Shown here: positions 9,807-44,064 of the stretch, piece after piece
Layout of the letters: every line of letters begins with the position of its first letter
How positions within the stretch are numbered: the first letter of the stretch is position 1
Source of the DNA: a virus
Taxonomy: Duplodnaviria; Heunggongvirae; Uroviricota; Caudoviricetes
DNA: 64,000 nt
Virus record (IMG/VR): IMGVR_UViG_3300014204_000107
Coordinates: 43,468 to 107,467 of that record
Strand: one strand, 5' to 3'
The notes under the pieces: model-generated
Seen by the model: the letters and a program-made list of their open reading frames with translations, nothing else
Databases searched by the model: none
Told to the model about the DNA's origin: nothing
Translations under genes and position numbers: made by a program

Positions 9807-10193
9807 ATGATATACGCTGCAATTGATTTTGATGGGACTTGCGTGATGCACGAATACCCTAGACTGGGCGCAGACGTTCCTGATGCAGTTAGAGTATTAA
9901 AGCGCATGGTAGATGCTGGGAGCGAACTTATTTTAAATACTATGCGTTCTGGCGATGAGTTACAAGTAGCGGTGCATTGGTTTGATGAAAGGGGTATTCC
10001 ATTATACGGCACACAAAAGAATCCAACACAAAAGCATTGGACATCCAGCCCCAAATGTTATGCAAATTTATATATTGACGATGCTGGAATCAATTGCCCC
10101 CTTATACATGGTAAACATGCTCGTGCGTATGCGGATTGGAATAAAATTGAACAGATATTAATTGAAAATAACATATTAAATGGAGTTAGCTGA
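9807..10193 (+). CDS. HAD-like hydrolase (AIDFDGT motif I)
   Basis: DxDGT motif; start placed at internal Met. Confidence 0.45.
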   Translation: MIYAAIDFDGTCVMHEYPRLGADVPDAVRVLKRMVDAGSELILNTMRSGDELQVAVHWFDERGIPLYGTQKNPTQKHWTSSPKCYANLYIDDAGINCPLIHGKHARAYADWNKIEQILIENNILNGVS

Positions 10194-10458
10194 TGGTATA
10201 TATACTGAGTTGTGCACACTTAATCAAATGGCAGAGACAGAAAAGGCAATTTTAGTTGATGTTACAGAAGTACTTATAGCTGTGTTTGCAGAAAATACAT
10301 GCTCTTATGTTAAAGAATATTATATGTGGGCCACACACCAAGATTGGATTCCAAAATCATTAATACTTGATGCGATAGAAGACTATTTTGGGGGTAAGGT
10401 TTATTTTATGCCACAATGGTTTGGCGAACTTTTAATTAAAAAATATAAAGAACAATGA
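10180..10458 (+). CDS. small protein of the TEKA…W[IF]PKS family
   Basis: Shares TEKAIL…WIPKS motif with 36653, 36952, 39424, 40348, 41017, 41510. Confidence 0.4.
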   Translation: MELADGIYTELCTLNQMAETEKAILVDVTEVLIAVFAENTCSYVKEYYMWATHQDWIPKSLILDAIEDYFGGKVYFMPQWFGELLIKKYKEQ

Positions 10459-33034: not shown

Positions 33035-33107
33035 GCATAGGTAGATTTAATTGGTAAAATCCCTTCATTTTAGGAGGAAGATGGTGGTTCGATTCCACCT
33101 CTATGCA
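33035..33107 (+). tRNA. tRNA-Lys (anticodon UUU), no encoded CCA
   Basis: 7-bp acceptor (GCATAGG/TCTATGC), D-arm GATT/AATC with GG loop, anticodon loop AUUUUAG (U33, A37), T-arm GGTGG-TTCGATT-CCACC; N26 register ambiguous. Confidence 0.55.
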
Positions 33108-33136
33108 CAAACAATAAACAATTTAAAAACTGCACG

Positions 33137-34707: not shown

Positions 34708-35112
34708 ATGTGTTTCACAGTACATTTTGACCACCAAGAGGCATTAACTGCTACTAAAAATATAGTTTGCTATAAAACTGGCCTTAAAAAAGGCTCAAAG
34801 TTTGAATCATATTGGAACGAGCATATTTATATTAAAAGAAAATTACAACCACATATTGAATTAGCAACCAATGTGCTTTCTATCATCCACGGGTACCATT
34901 CATTTACAACAAAAAAACGAGCTGTTGCGCAACTAGCTGTTGCGCAACTAGCAACAACTGAAATACTTGTTAAATGCGTTATACCGAAAGGTGCATTATA
35001 TTATTATAACCCAGATGCAAATGAATATGTATCAAGCACAATTATCTTTAAAAGATTCTTAAAAATAGCAATGTTATTAAATAAAATAGAGAATTATTTA
35101 AAAAGGAAATAA
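34708..35112 (+). CDS. hypothetical protein, paralogue of 39908-40348
   Basis: Shared GYH(S/A)(F/Y)TT and (V/I)IPKGA(L/E)YY(Y/H)NP…EYV motifs. Confidence 0.4.
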   Translation: MCFTVHFDHQEALTATKNIVCYKTGLKKGSKFESYWNEHIYIKRKLQPHIELATNVLSIIHGYHSFTTKKRAVAQLAVAQLATTEILVKCVIPKGALYYYNPDANEYVSSTIIFKRFLKIAMLLNKIENYLKRK

Positions 35113-36652: not shown

Positions 36653-36952
36653 ATGGATGAACAGGAATATAACCAATGGTGCCAAGATAATGGATATAGT
36701 AGAGATGATGTATGTACTGTTAGCGGTCACTTATTAAATGAAACTGAAAAAGCTTATTTATTAAATGCAATGTTAATATATTATGAAAATAAATTATATA
36801 TGGTTAATGATGTGTGGCTTCCAAAATCAGTAGTTTTATTAAATTATAGTTGGGAAGAATACTTCATAGCAACATCTGTTGCGTTCATTATTAAACGATA
36901 TTGGATAGATTTAATTGCCAACGATTCAAAAACTATTAAAGTGCAAATATAA
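36653..36952 (+). CDS. small protein of the TEKA…WLPKS family
   Basis: TEKAYLLNAML…DVWLPKSVV. Confidence 0.4.
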   Translation: MDEQEYNQWCQDNGYSRDDVCTVSGHLLNETEKAYLLNAMLIYYENKLYMVNDVWLPKSVVLLNYSWEEYFIATSVAFIIKRYWIDLIANDSKTIKVQI

Positions 36953-37284
36953 TGGCACACATTCAATTTATAGCAGAAAAAGAAACAGATAAAGCATATG
37001 GTGGATATGAATTAACAGTAACATTTGATGGTTCATGCTATTATGTAACACCCGAAGGGAATGATAAATTAGTTTGGGTTGCTAAAAGCTTGTTGCCAAA
37101 TATGGTATTAGCATCACCACTTATAATAGCTGATATTGCTGATTGGATTGCCGAACAAATAGTAGAAAAGCATAAATTAGTAGTATGGAAACAATCCGAT
37201 ACAATATGGTCTATTAATAAAGCAACATATGATGAATTAATGGATGAAATAAATAATGAGTTGGAAGATGAAACAACTAAATAA
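36952..37284 (+). CDS. small protein, TDKAY…VWVAKSLL variant of the same family
   Basis: Motif similarity. Confidence 0.4.
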   Translation: MAHIQFIAEKETDKAYGGYELTVTFDGSCYYVTPEGNDKLVWVAKSLLPNMVLASPLIIADIADWIAEQIVEKHKLVVWKQSDTIWSINKATYDELMDEINNELEDETTK

Positions 37285-37546
37285 CGAACAAATAGCTGAA
37301 TTAGAGCAGTTAAAAGAGGAGCTTGAAGAGTTAGAATATTGGATAACGCAACCAATAGAACGAATACTTAAAGAAGCCCCATTAAGAATGCTTGAAACCT
37401 TTTTACAAAGTTGTATTGATGATGCGGAATATGAAATATGTGCACCCATAAGTAAAGCAATTAATTATAGAAAAGAAGGCAAGCCGTTTACAGTAACAGC
37501 AAAAGAAAATAAGCACGAATATGAAGTATCAACCGTTGTTTCTTAG
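37268..37546 (+). CDS. small hypothetical protein
   Basis: ORF. Confidence 0.35.
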   Translation: MKQLNNEQIAELEQLKEELEELEYWITQPIERILKEAPLRMLETFLQSCIDDAEYEICAPISKAINYRKEGKPFTVTAKENKHEYEVSTVVS

Positions 37547-37928
37547 CTTTAAACAAAGCAGAAAAGCATATAATTTAATAGATTTTCTTATTAAAGATAT
37601 GGAATCTGATATATGGTACTATTCAAAATGGAATGGTATTCCGGATTGCCGGGTATCTAAAAGCTGGATAGATAATGAACTGCAAGGCAGTTATAAAAAG
37701 ATAAAATTTAGCTTTTGGCCGCCGACTAAAATGGAAATATTAGCACGGGAATTAAATAATATGCTTAAAATAGAAGATATGAAAATATTTAGAAAAATAG
37801 TATTTGATGATCATCATGAAATGATCAAATGGGTAAATAACAATATTGCAACCGTGCAAATAGTGCAAATAATAAGAACATATCACAATTATGAATATGA
37901 ATTATTTTATTATGAACTACCGCAATAA
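37521..37928 (+). CDS. hypothetical protein
   Basis: ORF. Confidence 0.4.
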   Translation: MKYQPLFLSFKQSRKAYNLIDFLIKDMESDIWYYSKWNGIPDCRVSKSWIDNELQGSYKKIKFSFWPPTKMEILARELNNMLKIEDMKIFRKIVFDDHHEMIKWVNNNIATVQIVQIIRTYHNYEYELFYYELPQ

Positions 37929-38036
37929 ATAACAATATGGGAACATTCATTGTCGTAATACTTGTATTAATACTGCTAATAATATTAGGTCCAGATATAT
38001 CAGATTCATTTCCAGATAAACCAAAAAATAGATAAT

Positions 38037-38255
38037 ATGAACGAACCAATAACATATAGTGACTTGCTAATAGGCATAATAGCAATTGTATTAGTGTGTG
38101 TTGCAACTTGGTTTGCAGCCAAATATTATGATAAGTATCTACAATGGAAAAGGCATAATTATATGAGTAGACTATGCCAATGCAAGAATAAAGAGATATG
38201 GAGAGAATCTAGAACTGGCAGAGGAGTATGTGCTAAGTGTGGAAGATATGTTTAA
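38037..38255 (+). CDS. small membrane protein with C-terminal CxxC…CxxC
   Basis: ORF. Confidence 0.35.
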   Translation: MNEPITYSDLLIGIIAIVLVCVATWFAAKYYDKYLQWKRHNYMSRLCQCKNKEIWRESRTGRGVCAKCGRYV

Positions 38256-38274
38256 TAAATAATTAATAAAAAAT

Positions 38275-39180
38275 ATGACAACAACAGAATTAAAAACTAT
38301 TTTATCTAATCATAAATTATGGTTAAATGGTAAAAAAAATGGAGTTTGTGCCGATTTAGGAGGTGTTGATTTAAGCGGTGCTAATTTAAGCAATGCTAAT
38401 TTAAGATATGCTAATTTACGCGGTGCTAATTTAAGCTATGCTAATTTAAGATGTGCTAATTTAAGCGGTGCTAATTTAAGCGGTGCTAATTTAAGCAATG
38501 CTAATTTACGCGGTGCTAATTTAAGCAATGCTAATTTAAGCAATGCTAATTTACGCGGTGCTGATTTAAGCGGTGCTGATTTAAGCGATGCTGATTTAAG
38601 CAATGCTGATTTAAGCAATGCTGATTTAAGCAATGCTGATTTAAGCAATGCTGATTTAAGCAATGCTGATTTAAGCAATGCTGATTTAAGCAATGCTAAT
38701 TTAAGCGGTGCTAATTTAAGCGGTGCTAATTTAGGCGGTGCTGATTTAAGCGGTGCTAATTTACGCGGTGCTAATTTACGCGGTGCTAATTTAAGATATA
38801 CTAATTTAAGCGGTGCTAATTTAAGCAATGCTAATTTACAAAATATTTTAATTAATGAATTATCAGCGTTCATACCATTATCGTGCCCCGAGGAAGGAAG
38901 TTTTATTGCATTTAAAACCGCGCAGAATCATATTATTAAATTATTAATACCAGAAGACGCAAAACGGAGTTCGGCAACATCATATAAATGTAGAGCATCA
39001 AAGGCAAAAGTACTTGAAATTAGTGATGAACTATCAAGCATACAATCTGATTATGATAACAACTTTGTCTATGCTGTTGGTGAAACAATTGAAGTAGATA
39101 ATTTTGATGAGTGTAGATGGAATGAATGCTCAACTGGAATACACTTTTTTATGTCTAAAGAACTTGCAAGGCAATATTAA
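38275..39180 (+). CDS. pentapeptide-repeat protein (about 35 A[ND]L[SR]xA repeats) with C-terminal globular domain
   Basis: Tandem pentapeptide repeats; N-terminal [13 protein letters not shown] shared with 15698. Confidence 0.65.
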
Positions 39181-39185
39181 TAACA

Positions 39186-39424
39186 TGGAATACAACGTAG
39201 ACGAACAAGGTATTAAATATAATAGTGAAATGGTTTGCGCCGAGTCATTATTTAAGAATGGTAAAAGCATAAGAAAGGCAAGTGTAATGTATTTGGAAGA
39301 TAATGTGATATGTGATTGTTGTGATGAAATAGCAACCTGCGCTATTATGAGTCCATTAGGACATTATACAATGCATATATGTGCAAATTGCTGCCAAGCA
39401 ATAATAAATCTAATAAATGAATAA
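39186..39424 (+). CDS. small Cys-rich protein
   Basis: ORF, start after upstream stop. Confidence 0.4.
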
Positions 39425-39642
39425 TGATTACAGAATTACAATTGATATGCGGCAAACTTGTAAAAGAAACAGATAACGCATGGTGTGTTGAAGATTTTAA
39501 AGTATATGCTCAAAGCTTTGATACAGTAATATTAATATCAAAACAAGCATGGTTTCCTAAATCAGTATGTTACCCGCATCCTTCGAAGGATGATATGATA
39601 ATTTTAATGGTGCCTGATTGGCTAATTCAAAAATTAATATAA
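39424..39642 (+). CDS. small protein of TEKA/W[IF]PKS family (TDNAW…AWFPKSV)
   Basis: Motif. Confidence 0.4.
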   Translation: MITELQLICGKLVKETDNAWCVEDFKVYAQSFDTVILISKQAWFPKSVCYPHPSKDDMIILMVPDWLIQKLI

Positions 39643-39654
39643 TGAATAATTAAT

Positions 39655-39885
39655 ATGAAAAGATACAGAATATCAAAAGACACATTCGCAGATAATCACG
39701 CAGAATATATAGCAGAATGCCAATCAGTGCCAACTGATATAGATTTATGGGAGCCAGTTCCACTAATTCATGGACATACGAGCAATCCAAAAACATATGA
39801 ATATTGCTTAGCACAAATAGAAATGGATAAGGCAGAAACATTAGCAAAGACCCGCATCAGTACAGAAATTATTGAAATAGTATGA
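39655..39885 (+). CDS. small hypothetical protein
   Basis: ORF. Confidence 0.4.
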   Translation: MKRYRISKDTFADNHAEYIAECQSVPTDIDLWEPVPLIHGHTSNPKTYEYCLAQIEMDKAETLAKTRISTEIIEIV

Positions 39886-39907
39886 TAACAATTAAAAACA
39901 AATAAAT

Positions 39908-40348
39908 ATGTGCTTTTTCATACCAAAAAATGCAACCAAGCAAATAGCAATTCAAGATATTGAATGCTATAAATATGGATATTATTATAAACAAAACAAC
40001 CCAGAACTGTATAAACATGCATTTCTAACTCGGCCATTCTGGAGATATGTAAAGGGAATCAGCAAACAAATAGAAGTATTTGATTCACCTGTATTTGATC
40101 ATATATGGTTTAAGAATAAACTGCAACCAACGGTTAAGCTTAATATTGATATAAAAGATAATGTAATATTGGATGGATACCATGCATATACTACATATGA
40201 TAATGTAGTGGTAGCGTATGGGACATGCCCGCGGGTTAATATTAAAATCGGAAAATTTATAATACCCAAAGGAGCAGAATATTACCACAATCCAGAAATA
40301 GAACAATATGTGGCAACCCAAATGATATTTATAGATTTTATAGAATAA
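39908..40348 (+). CDS. hypothetical protein, paralogue of 34708-35112
   Basis: Shared motifs. Confidence 0.4.
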   Translation: MCFFIPKNATKQIAIQDIECYKYGYYYKQNNPELYKHAFLTRPFWRYVKGISKQIEVFDSPVFDHIWFKNKLQPTVKLNIDIKDNVILDGYHAYTTYDNVVVAYGTCPRVNIKIGKFIIPKGAEYYHNPEIEQYVATQMIFIDFIE

Positions 40349-40665
40349 TGGTAAAAGCAGAGCTACATGGTGAGTTAATAACACAAACAGAAAAAGCAAT
40401 CCTGTTTGAAATAGCAATGATTTCATATTGTAATTATAGTGAAGATGCATTACATATTATAAGTATGGATACATGTCATATATATCTTGCACCACAATGG
40501 ATAGCACTCAAACTATTAGATGACCATACGCTATTTAAATTAGAATTTTTTAAAACCCACCCAAAATTTCTTATAGATTGCAATCTTAATATATGGCCAG
40601 AAGTACCAATATGGTTTGCAGACCAACTATTAAATAAAAACAATAAACAACAAAACAATGGATAA
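40348..40665 (+). CDS. small protein of TEKA family (TEKAILFEIAMISY)
   Basis: Motif. Confidence 0.4.
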   Translation: MVKAELHGELITQTEKAILFEIAMISYCNYSEDALHIISMDTCHIYLAPQWIALKLLDDHTLFKLEFFKTHPKFLIDCNLNIWPEVPIWFADQLLNKNNKQQNNG

Positions 40666-41014
40666 ATTTATATTAGTCGGCAATAGTGACATTATTAATT
40701 GTAATCACATTCGCAGATATTCTTTTAATAGTAAAGATAAAAATAAATTACAATTAACAGTATATTATACTGCAGATACATCTGATAATATCAATATACG
40801 GCAAGGCATACCAAAAGACTTATGGATTAAACACCTAATAAGGTTCTTAACTGGCGGGGATTCTTCTAAAATATATGATGTTGGTTGTGCAGCAGACGAA
40901 CTATTAAAGACTGTTAACATGATGGAAGGCCCGCCAAAAGAAACAAAACCAATAATAGCTGATACGCAAAACATAGCAGAAACCTATGTACCTGACGTAC
41001 CTATTGTGCATTAA
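40658..41014 (+). CDS. hypothetical protein
   Basis: ORF. Confidence 0.4.
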   Translation: MDKFILVGNSDIINCNHIRRYSFNSKDKNKLQLTVYYTADTSDNINIRQGIPKDLWIKHLIRFLTGGDSSKIYDVGCAADELLKTVNMMEGPPKETKPIIADTQNIAETYVPDVPIVH

Positions 41015-41016
41015 TA

Positions 41017-41268
41017 TTGCAACCGAGCATGCCACTAATACAATTTGATTTTGATAGAGTATCAGACAAGGCATTTCACGTATGTAATAATATAATATTG
41101 CATTATGTCCATGAAGTTTATTTAATGACAGTCGGCAATCGCAGAAATGATATATGGGTGCCAATAAGCCAATTGCAAGATATTAATATTTGGATGATTA
41201 ATGAACTATCAGCAGACATATCAGCTTGGCTAGCAGAAAGGCTTATAAAGAATATACCACTAATTTAA
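41017..41268 (+). CDS. small protein of TEKA/WxPxSQL family (SDKAF…DIWVPISQLQDIN…WLAERLI)
   Basis: Motif shared with 41510. Confidence 0.4.
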   Translation: MQPSMPLIQFDFDRVSDKAFHVCNNIILHYVHEVYLMTVGNRRNDIWVPISQLQDINIWMINELSADISAWLAERLIKNIPLI

Positions 41269-41281
41269 ATCAAGCAAACAT

Positions 41282-41488
41282 ATGTACAATAACGTAAAAT
41301 TAGGGCTAACGGAAGTGCAAGCAGCAAATATCCTAAAGAATATGGGATATAAAATAGAAATATATAAATATCCTAATGCGGAAAACCATTATGTATTTAA
41401 AGACTCTAATGGTGAAGAGCATACAGTGCAAACACTATTCGATAAAGTATTCTATAATTTCCTGCTTAACAATATGAAAGCAGAATAG
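41282..41488 (+). CDS. small hypothetical protein
   Basis: ORF. Confidence 0.35.
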   Translation: MYNNVKLGLTEVQAANILKNMGYKIEIYKYPNAENHYVFKDSNGEEHTVQTLFDKVFYNFLLNNMKAE

Positions 41489-41509
41489 CAATCGAGCAGA
41501 CCTAACATT

Positions 41510-41758
41510 ATGGCATACATAACTATTAATTATAGTATAGAAACGGACCTGGCATATAAAGTATATACTAGCATCTTTGTATTTATTAAAAAAGCAACCT
41601 ATTTTAAATATTTATTGCCAAACCACGAAGATATATGGATACCCAAAAGCCAATTAAAAAATATAAATACGTCTAATGAAGCAAAAATAATTCAAGCAAT
41701 AATAACAGATTGGTTGGCAGAAAAGCTAATAGCAGATTATAACCTTGCAGCAAAATAG
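41510..41758 (+). CDS. small protein of TEKA/WxPKSQL family (ETDLAY…DIWIPKSQLKNIN…WLAEKLI)
   Basis: Motif. Confidence 0.4.
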   Translation: MAYITINYSIETDLAYKVYTSIFVFIKKATYFKYLLPNHEDIWIPKSQLKNINTSNEAKIIQAIITDWLAEKLIADYNLAAK

Positions 41759-41809
41759 CTTATGATTGTCAAGCAGAAATTGCAACCAAGCAATCCTAAT
41801 AACTAATAT

Positions 41810-42103
41810 ATGCAATGGTTTGTTTATATAGTAGAATGCAATGATAATACCTTATATACAGGTATAACTAACAATATAGAGCTGCGCATACAAAAGCATA
41901 ATACAAAAAAAGGAGCAAAATATACGAAAGCAAGACTGCCAGTCAAACTAATATATAATCAAGAGTGTGCAAGCAAATCGGCAGCCCTAAAAGAAGAATA
42001 TAGAATCAAGCAACTAACAAAAAAGGAAAAGCTAGAATTAATAAGAAATTGCAACCAAACAACCCCAATATATGAACAAGGCAGTACAAATAACAATTAT
42101 TGA
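41810..42103 (+). CDS. GIY-YIG nuclease-domain protein (small stand-alone, YIVECNDNTLYTGITNN…R…H…KGAKYT)
   Basis: GIY…YIG core with conserved R, H, and KGAKYT. Confidence 0.55.
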   Translation: MQWFVYIVECNDNTLYTGITNNIELRIQKHNTKKGAKYTKARLPVKLIYNQECASKSAALKEEYRIKQLTKKEKLELIRNCNQTTPIYEQGSTNNNY

Positions 42104-42290
42104 AACAGAAGACTGGACATCCAGCACTCCAATAGGTAGGTATATTGTTATAGTAAAAGTAACACCAGAATTTATGCAGGAGCCAGAACATATTGTGAGC
42201 CACAGTGAAAAGGCAGAATATATAGCGCAAGAAATTAAAGAAGAATTCTTAAAGAAATTGCAACCGAGCAAGCCAACTACCACATATTAA
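42072..42290 (+). CDS. small hypothetical protein
   Basis: ORF. Confidence 0.35.
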   Translation: MNKAVQITIIETEDWTSSTPIGRYIVIVKVTPEFMQEPEHIVSHSEKAEYIAQEIKEEFLKKLQPSKPTTTY

Positions 42291-43005
42291 TAAAAACCTA
42301 GAAATTGCAACCAAACTATATAATTTGGAAATTGCAACCAATTACCTAATATACAATAAGGTAATAATATTATAGCAAATAACTAAATACCAAGAAATTG
42401 CAACCAACAAGAATTTGCAACCAACCAACTAATCCATACCGTATAAATGACAGTAGGTAAATAGTACAAATAGCCTGCTCCAGAAATTGCAACCAACGTA
42501 AAAATCAATAGGTTGGGGAGACGGAGGACGGTGTCTGGCTTGACTGTGCATCTTTATTCAAGCGTCTACCTAATAAGACCACGACCGACCTAACCATTTA
42601 AATTGCATAACCAGTTTTAGCTGTTACGCATATAGCGGTAACCACATAGCAATAATGTCGCGGATGCATATTATTCTTCCAGCCTAATTGCAGTAGGTAG
42701 CTCGTGTTTCTTCCATATGTTATATTATACGCTATATCTATTACACTAAATAGAACGTAATAGTTTGCGTTATTGCTATAGGTGTCCTGCACCCATCCCG
42801 GAATAGATTATTCCTCGGTGTCTGCACATTGCGTTAAGTTGCTTTAATTGTGTTAGAAAACTGCGTCTTTCATACTGTTGTTCTATTGTATAAGGTAAAG
42901 GTAGGAAGAATAGTTGAGATACACAAATTTAATTTTATGCTTCGTTAGTGTTGCTTGGTGTAGGTTTATATAGTGCTATAGAAGCATAGCAGATAGATTT
43001 GGTAG

Positions 43006-43045
43006 AGTGGTATATTATTCCTATATTTGTATATAACAAAATTAA
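43006..43045 (+). promoter_or_regulatory. variant of the recurring TTTGGTAG…TTT…TATAACAA promoter/leader motif
   Basis: Motif similarity; precedes ATG 43054. Confidence 0.35.
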
Positions 43046-43053
43046 CCAAACAA

Positions 43054-43293
43054 ATGAAAGTAAAAGTTGAAGAAACGGGTAAACCCGTATTGATCCCAAT
43101 GTGTGATATGGAACCTGGGCAAATGGCAGTTGTTGTTGACGATATGGCCGGCGACAATAACAGAGACTCTATTATACTGCGCACAGAGAAAGCAATAGCT
43201 GACTTTATGGACCCTTTGCTCGATTGGGAAATAGACTGTGAATTCAAAGTGAGAATCCTTCCCAAAGGCACCAAGATTGAAATTACTGCATAA
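43054..43293 (+). CDS. small protein, tandem paralogue family member 1 (MKVKVEETGKPVLIPM…ILRTEKAIADF…LPKGTKIEITA)
   Basis: Four tandem paralogues. Confidence 0.4.
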   Translation: MKVKVEETGKPVLIPMCDMEPGQMAVVVDDMAGDNNRDSIILRTEKAIADFMDPLLDWEIDCEFKVRILPKGTKIEITA

Positions 43294-43310
43294 CAAATTA
43301 ACCCAAACAA

Positions 43311-43550
43311 ATGAAAGTAAAAATTAAAGGAGAGGCTAAACCCGCATTGATCCCAATGTATGAAATGGTGCGTGGCCAGATCGCTAGAATTGTTGATACG
43401 TGCGCCGATAGTTATAACGGTTCTATCGTATTACGCAGTGAGAAAACTATTGTCGATTTAAAATCTCATCACGTAGATTGGTGCATGACATGCACTTATA
43501 AAGTAGAACTGTTGCCAGCCGGCACGGTCATTGAATTAACCGTTGAATAA
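43311..43550 (+). CDS. tandem paralogue 2
   Basis: Shared MKVKIKGEAKPALIPM…VLRSEKTIVDL…LLPAGTVIELTV. Confidence 0.4.
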   Translation: MKVKIKGEAKPALIPMYEMVRGQIARIVDTCADSYNGSIVLRSEKTIVDLKSHHVDWCMTCTYKVELLPAGTVIELTVE

Positions 43551-43558
43551 AAAAAAAT

Positions 43559-43798
43559 ATGAAAGCAAAAATAGTAAAAGAGGCTGCGCCTGCAGTCATG
43601 AAGATGAATGAACTTAAACCAGGACAGGTCGCTAAGATCAATGACCCTGATATTGGCCCCCACCATATGGGCAAAGTTATACTACGGACACAGCATTCAT
43701 TGGTTGATTTAGATGATCCAATTATAGATTTCTGCTTAGGAGCCGGTTGGGATGTAGAATTGCTCCCCGCTGGGACGGTTATCAAAATTACAGTCTAA
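43559..43798 (+). CDS. tandem paralogue 3
   Basis: Shared motifs. Confidence 0.4.
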   Translation: MKAKIVKEAAPAVMKMNELKPGQVAKINDPDIGPHHMGKVILRTQHSLVDLDDPIIDFCLGAGWDVELLPAGTVIKITV

Positions 43799-43866: not shown

Positions 43867-44064
43867 ATGAAAATTGGCAAATTTGGCCAGATTAAAGAGG
43901 GATTTTATAAAGACCATATTGTATTGCGTGCTGATAGCAGCATATGGATTGATTTGACAGACCCGGAATACAATTGGACTAATGGCATTACATATCCTGT
44001 TGACGCACGGATATTGCTGGTTGGCACCACACTTGAGTTGGTTATTGGTAATAGTGCCATCTAA
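43867..44064 (+). CDS. tandem paralogue 4 (divergent, shorter)
   Basis: HIVLRADSSIWIDL…LLVGTTLELVIG resembles the family C-terminus. Confidence 0.35.
   Translation: MKIGKFGQIKEGFYKDHIVLRADSSIWIDLTDPEYNWTNGITYPVDARILLVGTTLELVIGNSAI

What the first reader, a model, noticed from the sequence alone, without database searches (positions are those of the whole stretch)
36653..41758. Expanded family of small (70-110 aa) proteins with a TEKA(I/Y)L … W(I/F/L)PKS motif (at least 7 paralogues)
Members are 10180-10458 (TEKAILVDV…WIPKSLIL), 36653-36952 (TEKAYLLNA…WLPKSVVL), 36952-37284 (TDKAYGGYE…VWVAKSLL), 39424-39642 (TDNAWCVED…AWFPKSVC), 40348-40665 (TEKAILFEI…), 41017-41268 (SDKAFHVCN…IWVPISQLQDIN…WLAERLI) and 41510-41758 (TDLAYKVYT…IWIPKSQLKNIN…WLAEKLI). 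Most cluster in the 36.6-41.8 kb region that ends in the iteron cluster. A diversifying small-protein family next to iterons could be DNA-binding regulators, immunity or anti-defence proteins. I do not recognise the motif as a named domain.
Basis: seen in the sequence. Interest (0 to 1): 0.55.

Follow-up and report, generated by a model that had tools for sequence, protein, structure and literature searches.

The report
Seven-copy phage small beta-barrel family
Seven small genes in this giant uncultured phage are true relatives of one another and belong to a very common but never-studied phage protein family, a tiny beta-barrel usually encoded next to DNA-replication genes; they show no tie to the nearby DNA repeats.

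Summary
All seven ORFs exist as described. Leave-one-out profiles recover each copy (E 4e-4 to 3e-12; best non-member 0.037). A profile built only from 91 outside homologues ranks them as the top 7 of 462 window ORFs.

The family is not private to this genome. At least 4,681 protein clusters share the tripartite signature ETEKA(I/Y)L … VW(I/L)PKSQI … (I/V)PxWLAxxKGL. They include Yuavirus PAE1 Orf58 and fall in PHROGs 8389, 37067 and 12732, all of unknown function. No Pfam or NCBIfam family, solved structure or functional paper was found.

Relatives are normally single-copy. They sit in replication and nucleotide-metabolism modules. One is fused to an SF2 helicase, and some occur as tandem doublets or triplets.

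The window copies have an enlarged beta2-beta3 hairpin and relaxed motifs, are mostly acidic, and lie among ORFans.

The most likely role is a nucleic-acid- or replisome-partner-binding module that has diversified here. That role is inferred, not shown. The iteron link is unsupported. These are new members of a catalogued, uncharacterised family, of moderate interest.

The parts
10180..10458 (+). Paralogue 1 (92 aa). Canonical TEKA and WIPKS motifs, longest beta2-beta3 hairpin (T-to-W spacing 36), pI 4.4. Lies 26 kb from the other six copies.
   Evidence: leave-one-out E 1.2e-6; external HMM E 3.7e-10; AF2 pLDDT 78.8
36653..36952 (+). Paralogue 2 (99 aa). TEKA and WLPKS motifs, N-terminal extension of about 25 aa. 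Its stop overlaps the start of paralogue 3.
   Evidence: leave-one-out E 2.3e-7; E 5.7e-10
36952..37284 (+). Paralogue 3 (110 aa). TDKA and WVAKS motifs, acidic C-terminal tail, pI 4.4. Belongs to the local triplet with 41017 and 41510.
   Evidence: leave-one-out E 4.6e-10; E 2.2e-3
39424..39642 (+). Paralogue 4 (72 aa, the most compact). TDNA and WFPKS motifs; ends in WLIQKLI.
   Evidence: leave-one-out E 2.7e-5; E 6.7e-12, the best match to the outside family
40348..40665 (+). Paralogue 5 (105 aa, the most divergent). TEKA is kept but WIALK replaces WxPKS. Has an insertion before the C-terminal WFADQLL helix.
   Evidence: leave-one-out E 4.1e-4; E 1.8e-4
41017..41268 (+). Paralogue 6 (83 aa from TTG; more likely 79 aa from the ATG at 41029). 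SDKA and WVPIS motifs.
   Evidence: leave-one-out E 1.7e-9; P0003, 79 aa; E 3.8e-6
41510..41758 (+). Paralogue 7 (82 aa). TDLA and WIPKS motifs, pI 7.9. This is the copy modelled: strands 2-11, 15-26, 29-34, 42-45, a short 3-10 turn at KSQ, strands 50-55 and 60-65, then helix 67-77.
   Evidence: phrog_8389 E 4e-5; leave-one-out E 2.9e-12; pLDDT 94.7, pTM 0.82; E 5.2e-11

Best explanation
The seven ORFs are real, expressed-looking paralogues of a very abundant phage protein family that has never been characterised. I call it the 'TEKA/WxPKS' family; it corresponds to PHROGs 8389, 37067 and 12732. The unit is a domain of about 60 residues: a small beta-barrel of the OB/S1-Sm/SH3 assemblage capped by a C-terminal amphipathic helix.

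What is shown:
- homology of the seven copies to each other and to the outside family;
- the predicted fold;
- the family's wide distribution;
- the genomic context of its relatives.

What is inferred:
- The ancestral module is a binding domain that works with the phage DNA-replication and nucleotide-metabolism machinery.
- It binds single-stranded nucleic acid and/or a replisome partner such as a helicase or family-A polymerase.
- Binding uses the conserved patch formed by the TEKA turn, the WxPKS strand and 3-10 turn, and the Trp of the helix.
- It probably acts as a dimer or higher oligomer, because natural tandem doublets and triplets exist.

In this jumbo phage the module is present in seven deeply diverged copies of at most 33% identity. 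One local triplet arose by duplication. The other four are older or separately acquired lineages. All have an enlarged beta2-beta3 hairpin, five depart from the consensus motifs, and all lie among ORFans away from replication genes. The likeliest reading is sub- or neo-functionalised adaptors that keep the scaffold but recognise different targets. They are not dedicated binders of the neighbouring GAAATTGCAACCAA repeats.

The confidence of 0.45 refers to the inferred mechanism. Family identity and fold I hold at about 0.95.
For: Family membership: (13 outside hits at E < 1e-3 in an exhaustive search of 1.84 billion proteins).

Abundance: 348 clusters; at least 4,681 clusters. Cultured-phage members are listed.

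Leads toward RNA- or ssDNA-binding barrels:
- PAE1 Orf58 passes the Pfam S1_2 threshold (25.8 against 21.8 bits).
- Sporadic S1, S1_2 and Rpp29 hits occur among family members.
- 2 of the top 120 hits carry a precomputed PF13509 assignment.
- A GenBank submitter named the Sphaerotilus phage SN1 member an S1-like RNA-binding protein.

Context of relatives:
- One member is fused to the C-terminus of an SF2 helicase (ResIII + Helicase_C) at L027:1786-3162.
- In Stenotrophomonas phage DLP_3 the member's reading frame overlaps the start of an SF2 helicase gene by 4 nt.
- Members sit directly beside family-A DNA polymerase in PAE1, Mel-JY34 and a 349-kb contig.
- A DNA polymerase lies within 3 kb in 7 of 27 non-redundant loci.
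- The Pfam tally of neighbours is dominated by PolA, ThyX, DNA methylase, UvrD/SF1 helicase, UDG, dCMP deaminase, RecA, SSB, PNKP and a resolvase.

Oligomer hint: tandem doublets and one triplet.

Divergence of the window copies: T-to-W spacing of 24-36 against a family median of 15, motif departures, and nearest-neighbour analysis.
Against: - No binding activity or partner has been shown for any member.
- Six of the seven window copies, and 64% of the 98 aligned family sequences (which include the seven), are acidic. That is unusual, though not disqualifying, for nucleic-acid binders.
- No window copy matches S1, S1_2 or LSM models.
- hhalign of the family profile against two S1 sequences gave no signal.
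- The window copies are not in a replication module. All ten neighbours tested are ORFans.
- Three relatives lie near anti-defence genes: Tad3, an Acb2/Tad1 hairpin protein and a Tad2-like protein. That fits the rival explanation.
- The conserved polar residues could be purely structural.
Confidence: 0.45

Rival explanations
1. Host-takeover or anti-defence inhibitors. The barrel is a stable scaffold, and the variable beta2-beta3 hairpin and the tails bind and block different host proteins. The seven copies would reflect an arms race.
For: - The proteins are small and mostly acidic.
- The copies are highly diverged, with variable hairpin lengths.
- They lie in an ORFan-rich region that holds other paralogue sets and a pentapeptide-repeat protein.
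- Some relatives lie within two genes of Tad3 or an Acb2/Tad1-hairpin gene. A Tad2-like gene is among the neighbours.
Against: - The strictly conserved motif across phages of unrelated hosts (Pseudomonas, Bordetella, Microcystis, metagenomes) argues for a universal ligand rather than host-specific targets.
- The dominant context is replication genes, and one member is fused to a helicase.
- There is no match to any Pfam anti-defence family.
- The PADLOC library was not searched; it holds defence proteins, not anti-defence proteins.
Confidence: 0.25
2. Nucleotide-signal sponges. Oligomers of the barrel sequester cyclic-nucleotide immune messengers, using the conserved Trp, Lys, Thr and Ser residues as a ligand pocket.
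For: - The size, the hints of oligomerisation (tandem repeats) and the conserved Trp/Lys/Ser/Thr residues resemble the general logic of known sponges. This comparison rests on my own knowledge of Tad1, Tad2 and Acb2.
- Members are occasionally near Tad3, Tad2-like or Acb2-like genes.
Against: - There is no sequence or fold match to any known sponge family.
- Most neighbours are replication genes.
- Five of the seven window copies have lost part of the putative pocket.
- The idea is purely speculative.
Confidence: 0.06
3. One reading: sequence-specific DNA-binding regulators or initiators that recognise the adjacent GAAATTGCAACCAA iterons.
For: - The last copy ends 18 nt before the first of 8 same-strand repeats.
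- A degenerate repeat, TTGCAACCGAGC, overlaps the start of 41017/41029.
- Small beta-barrels can bind DNA.
Against: - The repeat is absent from all loci of relatives in other phages, while the protein motif is conserved there.
- One copy is 26 kb from the repeats, and six of the seven are acidic.
- No HTH, wHTH or other sequence-reading module is present.
- Two exact repeat copies start 27 and 34 nt upstream of the start codons of the next two genes. That is also compatible with a promoter or leader element.
Confidence: 0.05
4. The shared residues are chance matches or the ORFs are non-coding.
For: Several pairwise comparisons among the seven are not significant on their own.
Against: - Leave-one-out and external-only profiles recover all seven.
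- There are thousands of outside homologues.
- The fold is predicted confidently from the alignment.
- Identical proteins are called in independent assemblies.
Confidence: 0.01

Closest known systems
PHROG phrog_8389 (with phrog_37067 and phrog_12732). Examples: Pseudomonas phage PAE1 Orf58 (ALF51557.1, annotated 'putative DNA primase'), M6 ORF063, the Bordetella Vojvodinavirus homologues and Microcystis phage Mel-JY34 XAI96476.1.
   Same: - The same three motifs in the same order, at a similar size.
- 66 of the 98 aligned family members hit phrog_8389.
- Window copy 41510-41758 hits it at E 4e-5, and three other copies hit it weakly.
- An HMM built from outside proteins recovers all seven window copies.
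   Different: - The catalogued members are 65-104 aa and were seen as one copy per locus in the flanks examined. They have a short beta2-beta3 hairpin (T-to-W spacing about 15) and sit next to PolA, dCMP deaminase or a helicase.
- The window has seven copies with 24-36-residue spacing and relaxed motifs, set among ORFans.
- The PHROG has no assigned function. The 'DNA primase' label appears to be an unsupported, propagated annotation: a 65-aa protein with no primase domain.
Sm/LSm/Hfq small beta-barrels
   Different: - There is no N-terminal helix; the helix is C-terminal.
- There are no Sm1/Sm2 motifs and no LSM Pfam hit.
- Ring formation is untested.
S1 / S1_2 (CvfB-type) OB-fold RNA-binding domains
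   Same: - PAE1 Orf58 and a few other members reach the Pfam S1_2 threshold.
- Canonical members have five strands with a short helical turn after the third.
- From my own recall, 'W-I-P-K-S-Q-I' resembles the S1 'G-(F/L)-(L/V)-(H/P)-x-(S/K)-(E/Q)-(I/L)' stretch.
   Different: - No window copy matches S1 models.
- hhalign against two S1 sequences gave no signal.
- The last S1 strand is replaced by a helix.
Sac7d/Sso7d-type 7-kDa chromatin proteins (SH3-like barrel plus C-terminal helix)
   Same: The same overall architecture and size. This comparison is from my own knowledge of that family.

Membership tests
TEKA/WxPKS phage small-beta-barrel family (phrog_8389 / 37067 / 12732; function unknown) | Significant match to a profile built from members in other genomes | tested here: met
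   An external-only HMM of 91 sequences ranks the seven ORFs as the top 7 of 462 window ORFs, at E 6.7e-12 to 2.2e-3, with the next ORF at 0.36. phrog_8389 itself matches 41510-41758 at E 4e-5, matches 36653, 39424 and 41017 only at E 0.02-0.15, and does not match the other three.
TEKA/WxPKS phage small-beta-barrel family (phrog_8389 / 37067 / 12732; function unknown) | Three motifs in order: (T/S)(E/D)KA, W-x-P-K-S, and (I/V)-P-x-W-(L/F/I)-A | tested here: met
   All seven align at the three motifs. Two copies are fully canonical (10180, 36653). Five carry one to three substitutions (TDNA, TDLA, SDKA, WVAKS, WVPIS, WIALK).
TEKA/WxPKS phage small-beta-barrel family (phrog_8389 / 37067 / 12732; function unknown) | Predicted small beta-barrel followed by a C-terminal helix | tested here: met
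   AF2 of 41510-41755 gives pLDDT 94.7. AF2 of 10180-10455 gives pLDDT 78.8 with the same order of elements. The other five copies were not modelled.
S1 domain (Pfam PF00575 / PF13509 S1_2) | Score above the Pfam gathering threshold | tested here: not met
   No S1 or S1_2 hit for any window copy, even at E <= 10. The threshold is met only by some outside members, such as PAE1 Orf58 (25.8 against 21.8 bits).
S1 domain (Pfam PF00575 / PF13509 S1_2) | Profile-level homology to bona fide S1 domains | tested here: inconclusive
The test is underpowered because each S1 side was a single sequence.
Sm/LSm/Hfq | N-terminal helix plus five bent strands, with Sm1/Sm2 motifs | tested here: not met
Sm/LSm/Hfq | Assembly into hexameric or heptameric rings | not testable with these tools
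   No multimer prediction was available. Tandem doublets and triplets in relatives only hint at oligomers.
Iteron-binding initiators or regulators | A sequence-reading DNA-binding module (wHTH, HTH or RHH) and co-occurrence with cognate repeats in relatives | tested here: not met
   No such domain was found. The repeat is absent from all relatives' loci.
Known anti-defence sponge families (Tad1, Tad2/DUF2829, Tad3, Acb2) | Match to the family's Pfam model | tested here: not met
   No hits for the seven copies or for the 98 family members. These families appear only as occasional neighbours.

The most novel reading that the evidence does not exclude
The TEKA/WxPKS barrel is an Sm-like ring-forming nucleic-acid chaperone of phage replisomes. 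In this jumbo phage its seven diverged paralogues would assemble into a hetero-oligomeric ring, analogous to eukaryotic LSm1-7. That would be a viral, independently evolved heteromeric Sm-type complex.
Probability: 0.04. Interest if true: 0.8.

Novelty: new member of a known kind. Interest (0 to 1): 0.36.

Why it matters
The family is among the abundant 'dark matter' of phage genomes. It has at least 4,681 clusters at 90% identity and is present in therapeutic-candidate Pseudomonas Yuaviruses. Yet it has no Pfam entry, no structure and no known function, and it is sometimes mislabelled 'DNA primase'.

This work gives it three things:
- a sequence definition;
- a confident fold;
- a testable functional hypothesis, based on the helicase fusion, adjacency to PolA, and the tandem repeats that hint at oligomers.

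These could justify a new domain entry and a simple experiment in a tractable phage. The seven-copy set in one jumbo phage offers a natural series of variants, differing in hairpin length and motif substitutions, for separating scaffold from specificity. The result also removes a tempting but unsupported link to the neighbouring repeat cluster.

Tried and rejected
- **Pfam, NCBIfam and PHROGs on the seven copies.** No curated family was found; only weak phrog_8389 hits.
- **DNA similarity to cultured phages.** Only the pentapeptide-repeat gene matched. The first attempt failed because the query was one base too long.
- **Word-indexed protein search with the seven-copy alignment.** Only self hits came back. 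The exhaustive search, or adding outside sequences, was needed.
- **PDB sequence searches with the family profiles.** Nothing was found.
- **BFVD.** Only uncharacterised phage proteins.
- **afdb50.** The library was not available.
- **The search for related loci with alignment A1.** With the single protein it found one locus.
- **hhalign against S1 sequences.** No signal.
- **Cluster names.** Only 'hypothetical protein', 'putative DNA primase' and one 'RNase P/MRP p29'.
- **Literature.** Searches for the motif strings returned only plant WIPK/MPK kinase papers. Searches for small beta-barrel phage paralogues, for Yuavirus Orf58 and for helicase accessory barrels found no study of this protein.
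- **Promoter and terminator scan of 36-43.2 kb.** Counts were at chance level.
- **Rfam over the window.** Only one tRNA.
- **First neighbour-gene tally.** Discarded because the both-strand greedy ORF calling picked antisense ORFs in GC-rich loci. It was redone on the same strand only. That version still under-counts downstream genes whose longest ORF overlaps the member, so DNA polymerases were counted separately by tblastn.
- **SF2 helicases of L027 and DLP_3.** They are not detectably similar to each other, so I count them as two independent associations.

Full report
**Setting.** The window has 34.6% G+C, and nearly all long ORFs are on the + strand. The seven proteins are found in public assemblies on near-identical contigs of 299,351 and 299,185 bp. 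Larger genes in the window encode AAA ATPases, a Ro60/TROVE protein, an SPFH protein, NAMPT and a DUF932 protein. The largest ORF has only distant relatives, in Microcystis phage Mel-JY01 and in an uncultured 484-kb phage. This is therefore an accessory region of an uncultured jumbo phage. None of the seven genes has a Shine-Dalgarno sequence upstream.

Pairwise similarity is clear only within 36952/41017/41510 (E 1e-7 to 1e-8) and marginal elsewhere. Profiles settle the matter:
- In leave-one-out tests every omitted copy is recovered at E 4e-4 to 3e-12. The best non-member among 286 window ORFs scores 0.037 or worse.
- A profile built only from 91 homologues of other genomes places the seven as the top 7 of 462 window ORFs (E 6.7e-12 to 2.2e-3; next 0.36).

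The two motifs co-occur in 6 ORFs against 0.001 expected in shuffles, although that regex was chosen after the fact. The alignment shows a third shared motif, (I/V)PxW(L/F/I)AExL(I/L). No further copy exists in the window or in about 18 kb of flanking contig. About 217 kb of the contig was not examined.

**What the family is.** No Pfam or NCBIfam model matches any copy. PHROG phrog_8389, of unknown function, matches 41510-41758 at E 4e-5 and three others weakly.

An exhaustive HMMER search of 1.84 billion representatives found 13 outside proteins at E < 1e-3. All carry the same three motifs. Adding them to the query gave 348 clusters. A profile of the canonical subfamily gave at least 4,681 clusters, a count limited by the tool's candidate cap. 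Almost all are 57-124 aa and unnamed. Only 2 of the top 120 carry a precomputed Pfam assignment, S1_2.

The family consensus is …ETEKAiLv…(hairpin)…vWiPKSQi…eiPeWLAekKGL. Members in cultured phages include:
- the Pseudomonas Yuaviruses (PAE1 Orf58, labelled 'putative DNA primase'; M6 ORF063);
- the Bordetella Vojvodinaviruses;
- Sphaerotilus phage SN1 (labelled 'S1-like RNA-binding');
- Stenotrophomonas phage DLP_3;
- Microcystis phage Mel-JY34.

Of the 98 aligned members, 66 hit phrog_8389, 29 hit phrog_37067 and 19 hit phrog_12732, all of unknown function. I found no solved structure by sequence and no paper dealing with the protein.

**Fold.** With a 98-sequence alignment, AlphaFold2 models 41510-41755 at pLDDT 94.7 and pTM 0.82. 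The model has six strands, a 3-10 turn exactly at K-S-Q of the WxPKS motif, and a C-terminal helix that starts at the conserved Trp. The 10180 copy, modelled from only seven sequences, gives the same order of elements at pLDDT 78.8.

Sporadic sub-threshold or threshold Pfam hits among family members are all to small beta-barrel families: S1_2, S1, Rpp29, SH3b. The family is thus a small beta-barrel of the OB/S1-Sm/SH3 assemblage whose exact superfamily is unresolved. hhalign against two S1 sequences gave nothing, and the window copies do not meet S1 or Sm membership criteria.

**Context and architectures of relatives.** In 26 non-redundant loci, the annotated neighbours within three same-strand ORFs were tallied:
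- three loci each: family-A DNA polymerase, ThyX, DNA methylase, UvrD/SF1 helicase;
- two each: UDG, dCMP deaminase, ParB_N, HTH;
- one each: RecA, SSB, PNKP phosphatase, a Holliday-junction resolvase-like nuclease, and others including Tad2-like and Tad3.

A DNA polymerase lies within 3 kb in 7 of 27 non-redundant loci. The member is directly adjacent to PolA in PAE1, Mel-JY34 and a 349-kb contig.

In one IMG/VR contig the module forms the C-terminus of a 458-aa SF2 helicase with ResIII and Helicase_C domains. In phage DLP_3 it overlaps by 4 nt the start of an unrelated SF2 helicase gene. Tandem doublets (P0010, P0013, P0036, P0060, P0079) and one triplet (L030) exist, which suggests that the unit works as an oligomer. 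A minority of relatives lie near anti-defence genes: Tad3 and an Acb2/Tad1 hairpin protein.

**What is special about the window copies.** In the flanks examined, which were only 3-10 kb wide, relatives were single-copy. This phage has seven.

Only 36952, 41017 and 41510 are each other's closest relatives, which points to local duplication. The other four are closer to proteins from other genomes than to any window copy. The set therefore mixes old lineages with one recent expansion, and all pairs are at most 33% identical.

The distance from the TEKA Thr to the WxPKS Trp is 24-36 residues, against a family median of 15. In the model the extra residues form a long beta2-beta3 hairpin. Five copies depart from the near-invariant residues (TDNA, TDLA, SDKA, WVAKS, WVPIS, WIALK). 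Six are acidic, with pI 4.4-5.4.

They sit among ORFans: none of ten neighbours tested has a Pfam hit. The same stretch holds other paralogue sets and a pentapeptide-repeat protein.

**The iteron link.** Eight same-strand copies of GAAATTGCAACCAA (exact or with one mismatch) lie at 41776-42496, against 1.7 matches expected by chance at two mismatches over the whole window. The first starts 18 nt after the stop of the last paralogue. The repeat is absent from every relative's locus outside this phage. The protein motif is conserved across thousands of genomes that lack the repeat. One copy is 26 kb away. Two exact repeat copies start 34 and 27 nt upstream of the start codons of the next two genes, a GIY-YIG gene and a 72-aa ORF. 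A degenerate copy overlaps the start of 41017/41029. I see no evidence that the family and the repeats are functionally coupled. I cannot exclude it for the single adjacent copy.

**Mechanism.** Homology, fold, distribution and context are shown. The following is inferred. The ancestral module is a binding domain serving phage DNA replication or nucleotide metabolism. It contacts single-stranded nucleic acid and/or a replisome protein through the conserved TEKA/WxPKS/Trp surface, probably as an oligomer. The seven jumbo-phage copies keep the scaffold but have diversified the hairpin and relaxed the motif, so they probably act on different targets. I put this at about 0.45.

The main rival is host-protein inhibitors or anti-defence factors built on a stable barrel, at about 0.25. 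It is favoured by the acidity, the divergence and the ORFan context. It is disfavoured by the cross-host conservation of the motif and by the replication context. A nucleotide-sponge role (about 0.06) and iteron-specific regulation (about 0.05) are not excluded. Chance resemblance is excluded.

**Verdict.** It consists of new members, in unusual copy number and form, of a family that is catalogued only as PHROGs of unknown function. It is not a new kind of system, and its function remains open. Interest is moderate, because the family is very abundant, wholly uncharacterised and now has a concrete, cheap experimental path.

Noticed in passing
window 41776-42496 (and 42290-43027): Eight same-strand copies of (A)GAAATTGCAACCAA, exact or with one mismatch. 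Two exact copies start 34 and 27 nt upstream of the ATGs of the GIY-YIG gene (41810-42103) and of the 42072-42290 ORF. The others lie in an ORF-poor stretch of about 740 nt. A degenerate copy (TTGCAACCGAGC) overlaps the start of 41017/41029. Among all fetched loci, the motif occurs only in contigs of this same phage. It could be a phage-specific promoter or leader element rather than origin iterons.
   Followed up: partly
window 43027-43798 (and possibly 43867-44064): A tandem trio of paralogous genes of 79-88 aa (blastp E 1e-15 to 1e-22) with no Pfam hit for the one tested. A fourth ORF downstream looks similar by eye but is not significant by blastp.
   Followed up: partly
window 34708-35112 and 39908-40348: Another paralogue pair (36% identity over 101 aa, E 1e-15) with no Pfam hit. 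The second member directly precedes TEKA-family copy 40348-40665.
   Followed up: partly
window 26670-28118 and 33035-33108: A Ro60/TROVE + vWA protein, with an odd tRNA-like gene 5 kb downstream. ARAGORN could not assign an amino acid to its anticodon 'tt'; Rfam scores it as tRNA at 42.6 bits. Bacterial Ro60 partners with Y RNAs that carry a tRNA-like module, so this could be a phage Ro60/Y-RNA pair.
   Followed up: no
window 38275-39180: A pentapeptide-repeat protein of 301 aa in the window but 276 aa in the near-identical contig L008, which indicates repeat-number variation between assemblies. Its C-terminus carries DUF5758. It was the only part of 36.5-42.5 kb with DNA similarity to cultured (Staphylococcus and Listeria) phages.
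   Followed up: partly
window, upstream of all seven family genes: No Shine-Dalgarno-like sequence lies in the 30 nt before any start codon, and several genes overlap by 1-4 nt. Together with relatives in Flavobacterium phages and a CHU_C-domain neighbour in L003, this hints at a Bacteroidota-type host.
   Followed up: no
L027:1786-3162 (IMGVR_UViG_3300010346_000524): A 458-aa SF2 helicase (ResIII + Helicase_C) carrying a C-terminal TEKA/WxPKS module. It is the only multidomain architecture found for the family.
   Followed up: partly
L001:2465-2662 (Pseudomonas phage PAE1 Orf58) and homologues in other Yuavirus and Vojvodinavirus records: The 65-aa protein is annotated 'putative DNA primase' (or 'DNA primate') in several GenBank records, although it has no primase domain. 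This looks like a propagated misannotation.
   Followed up: partly
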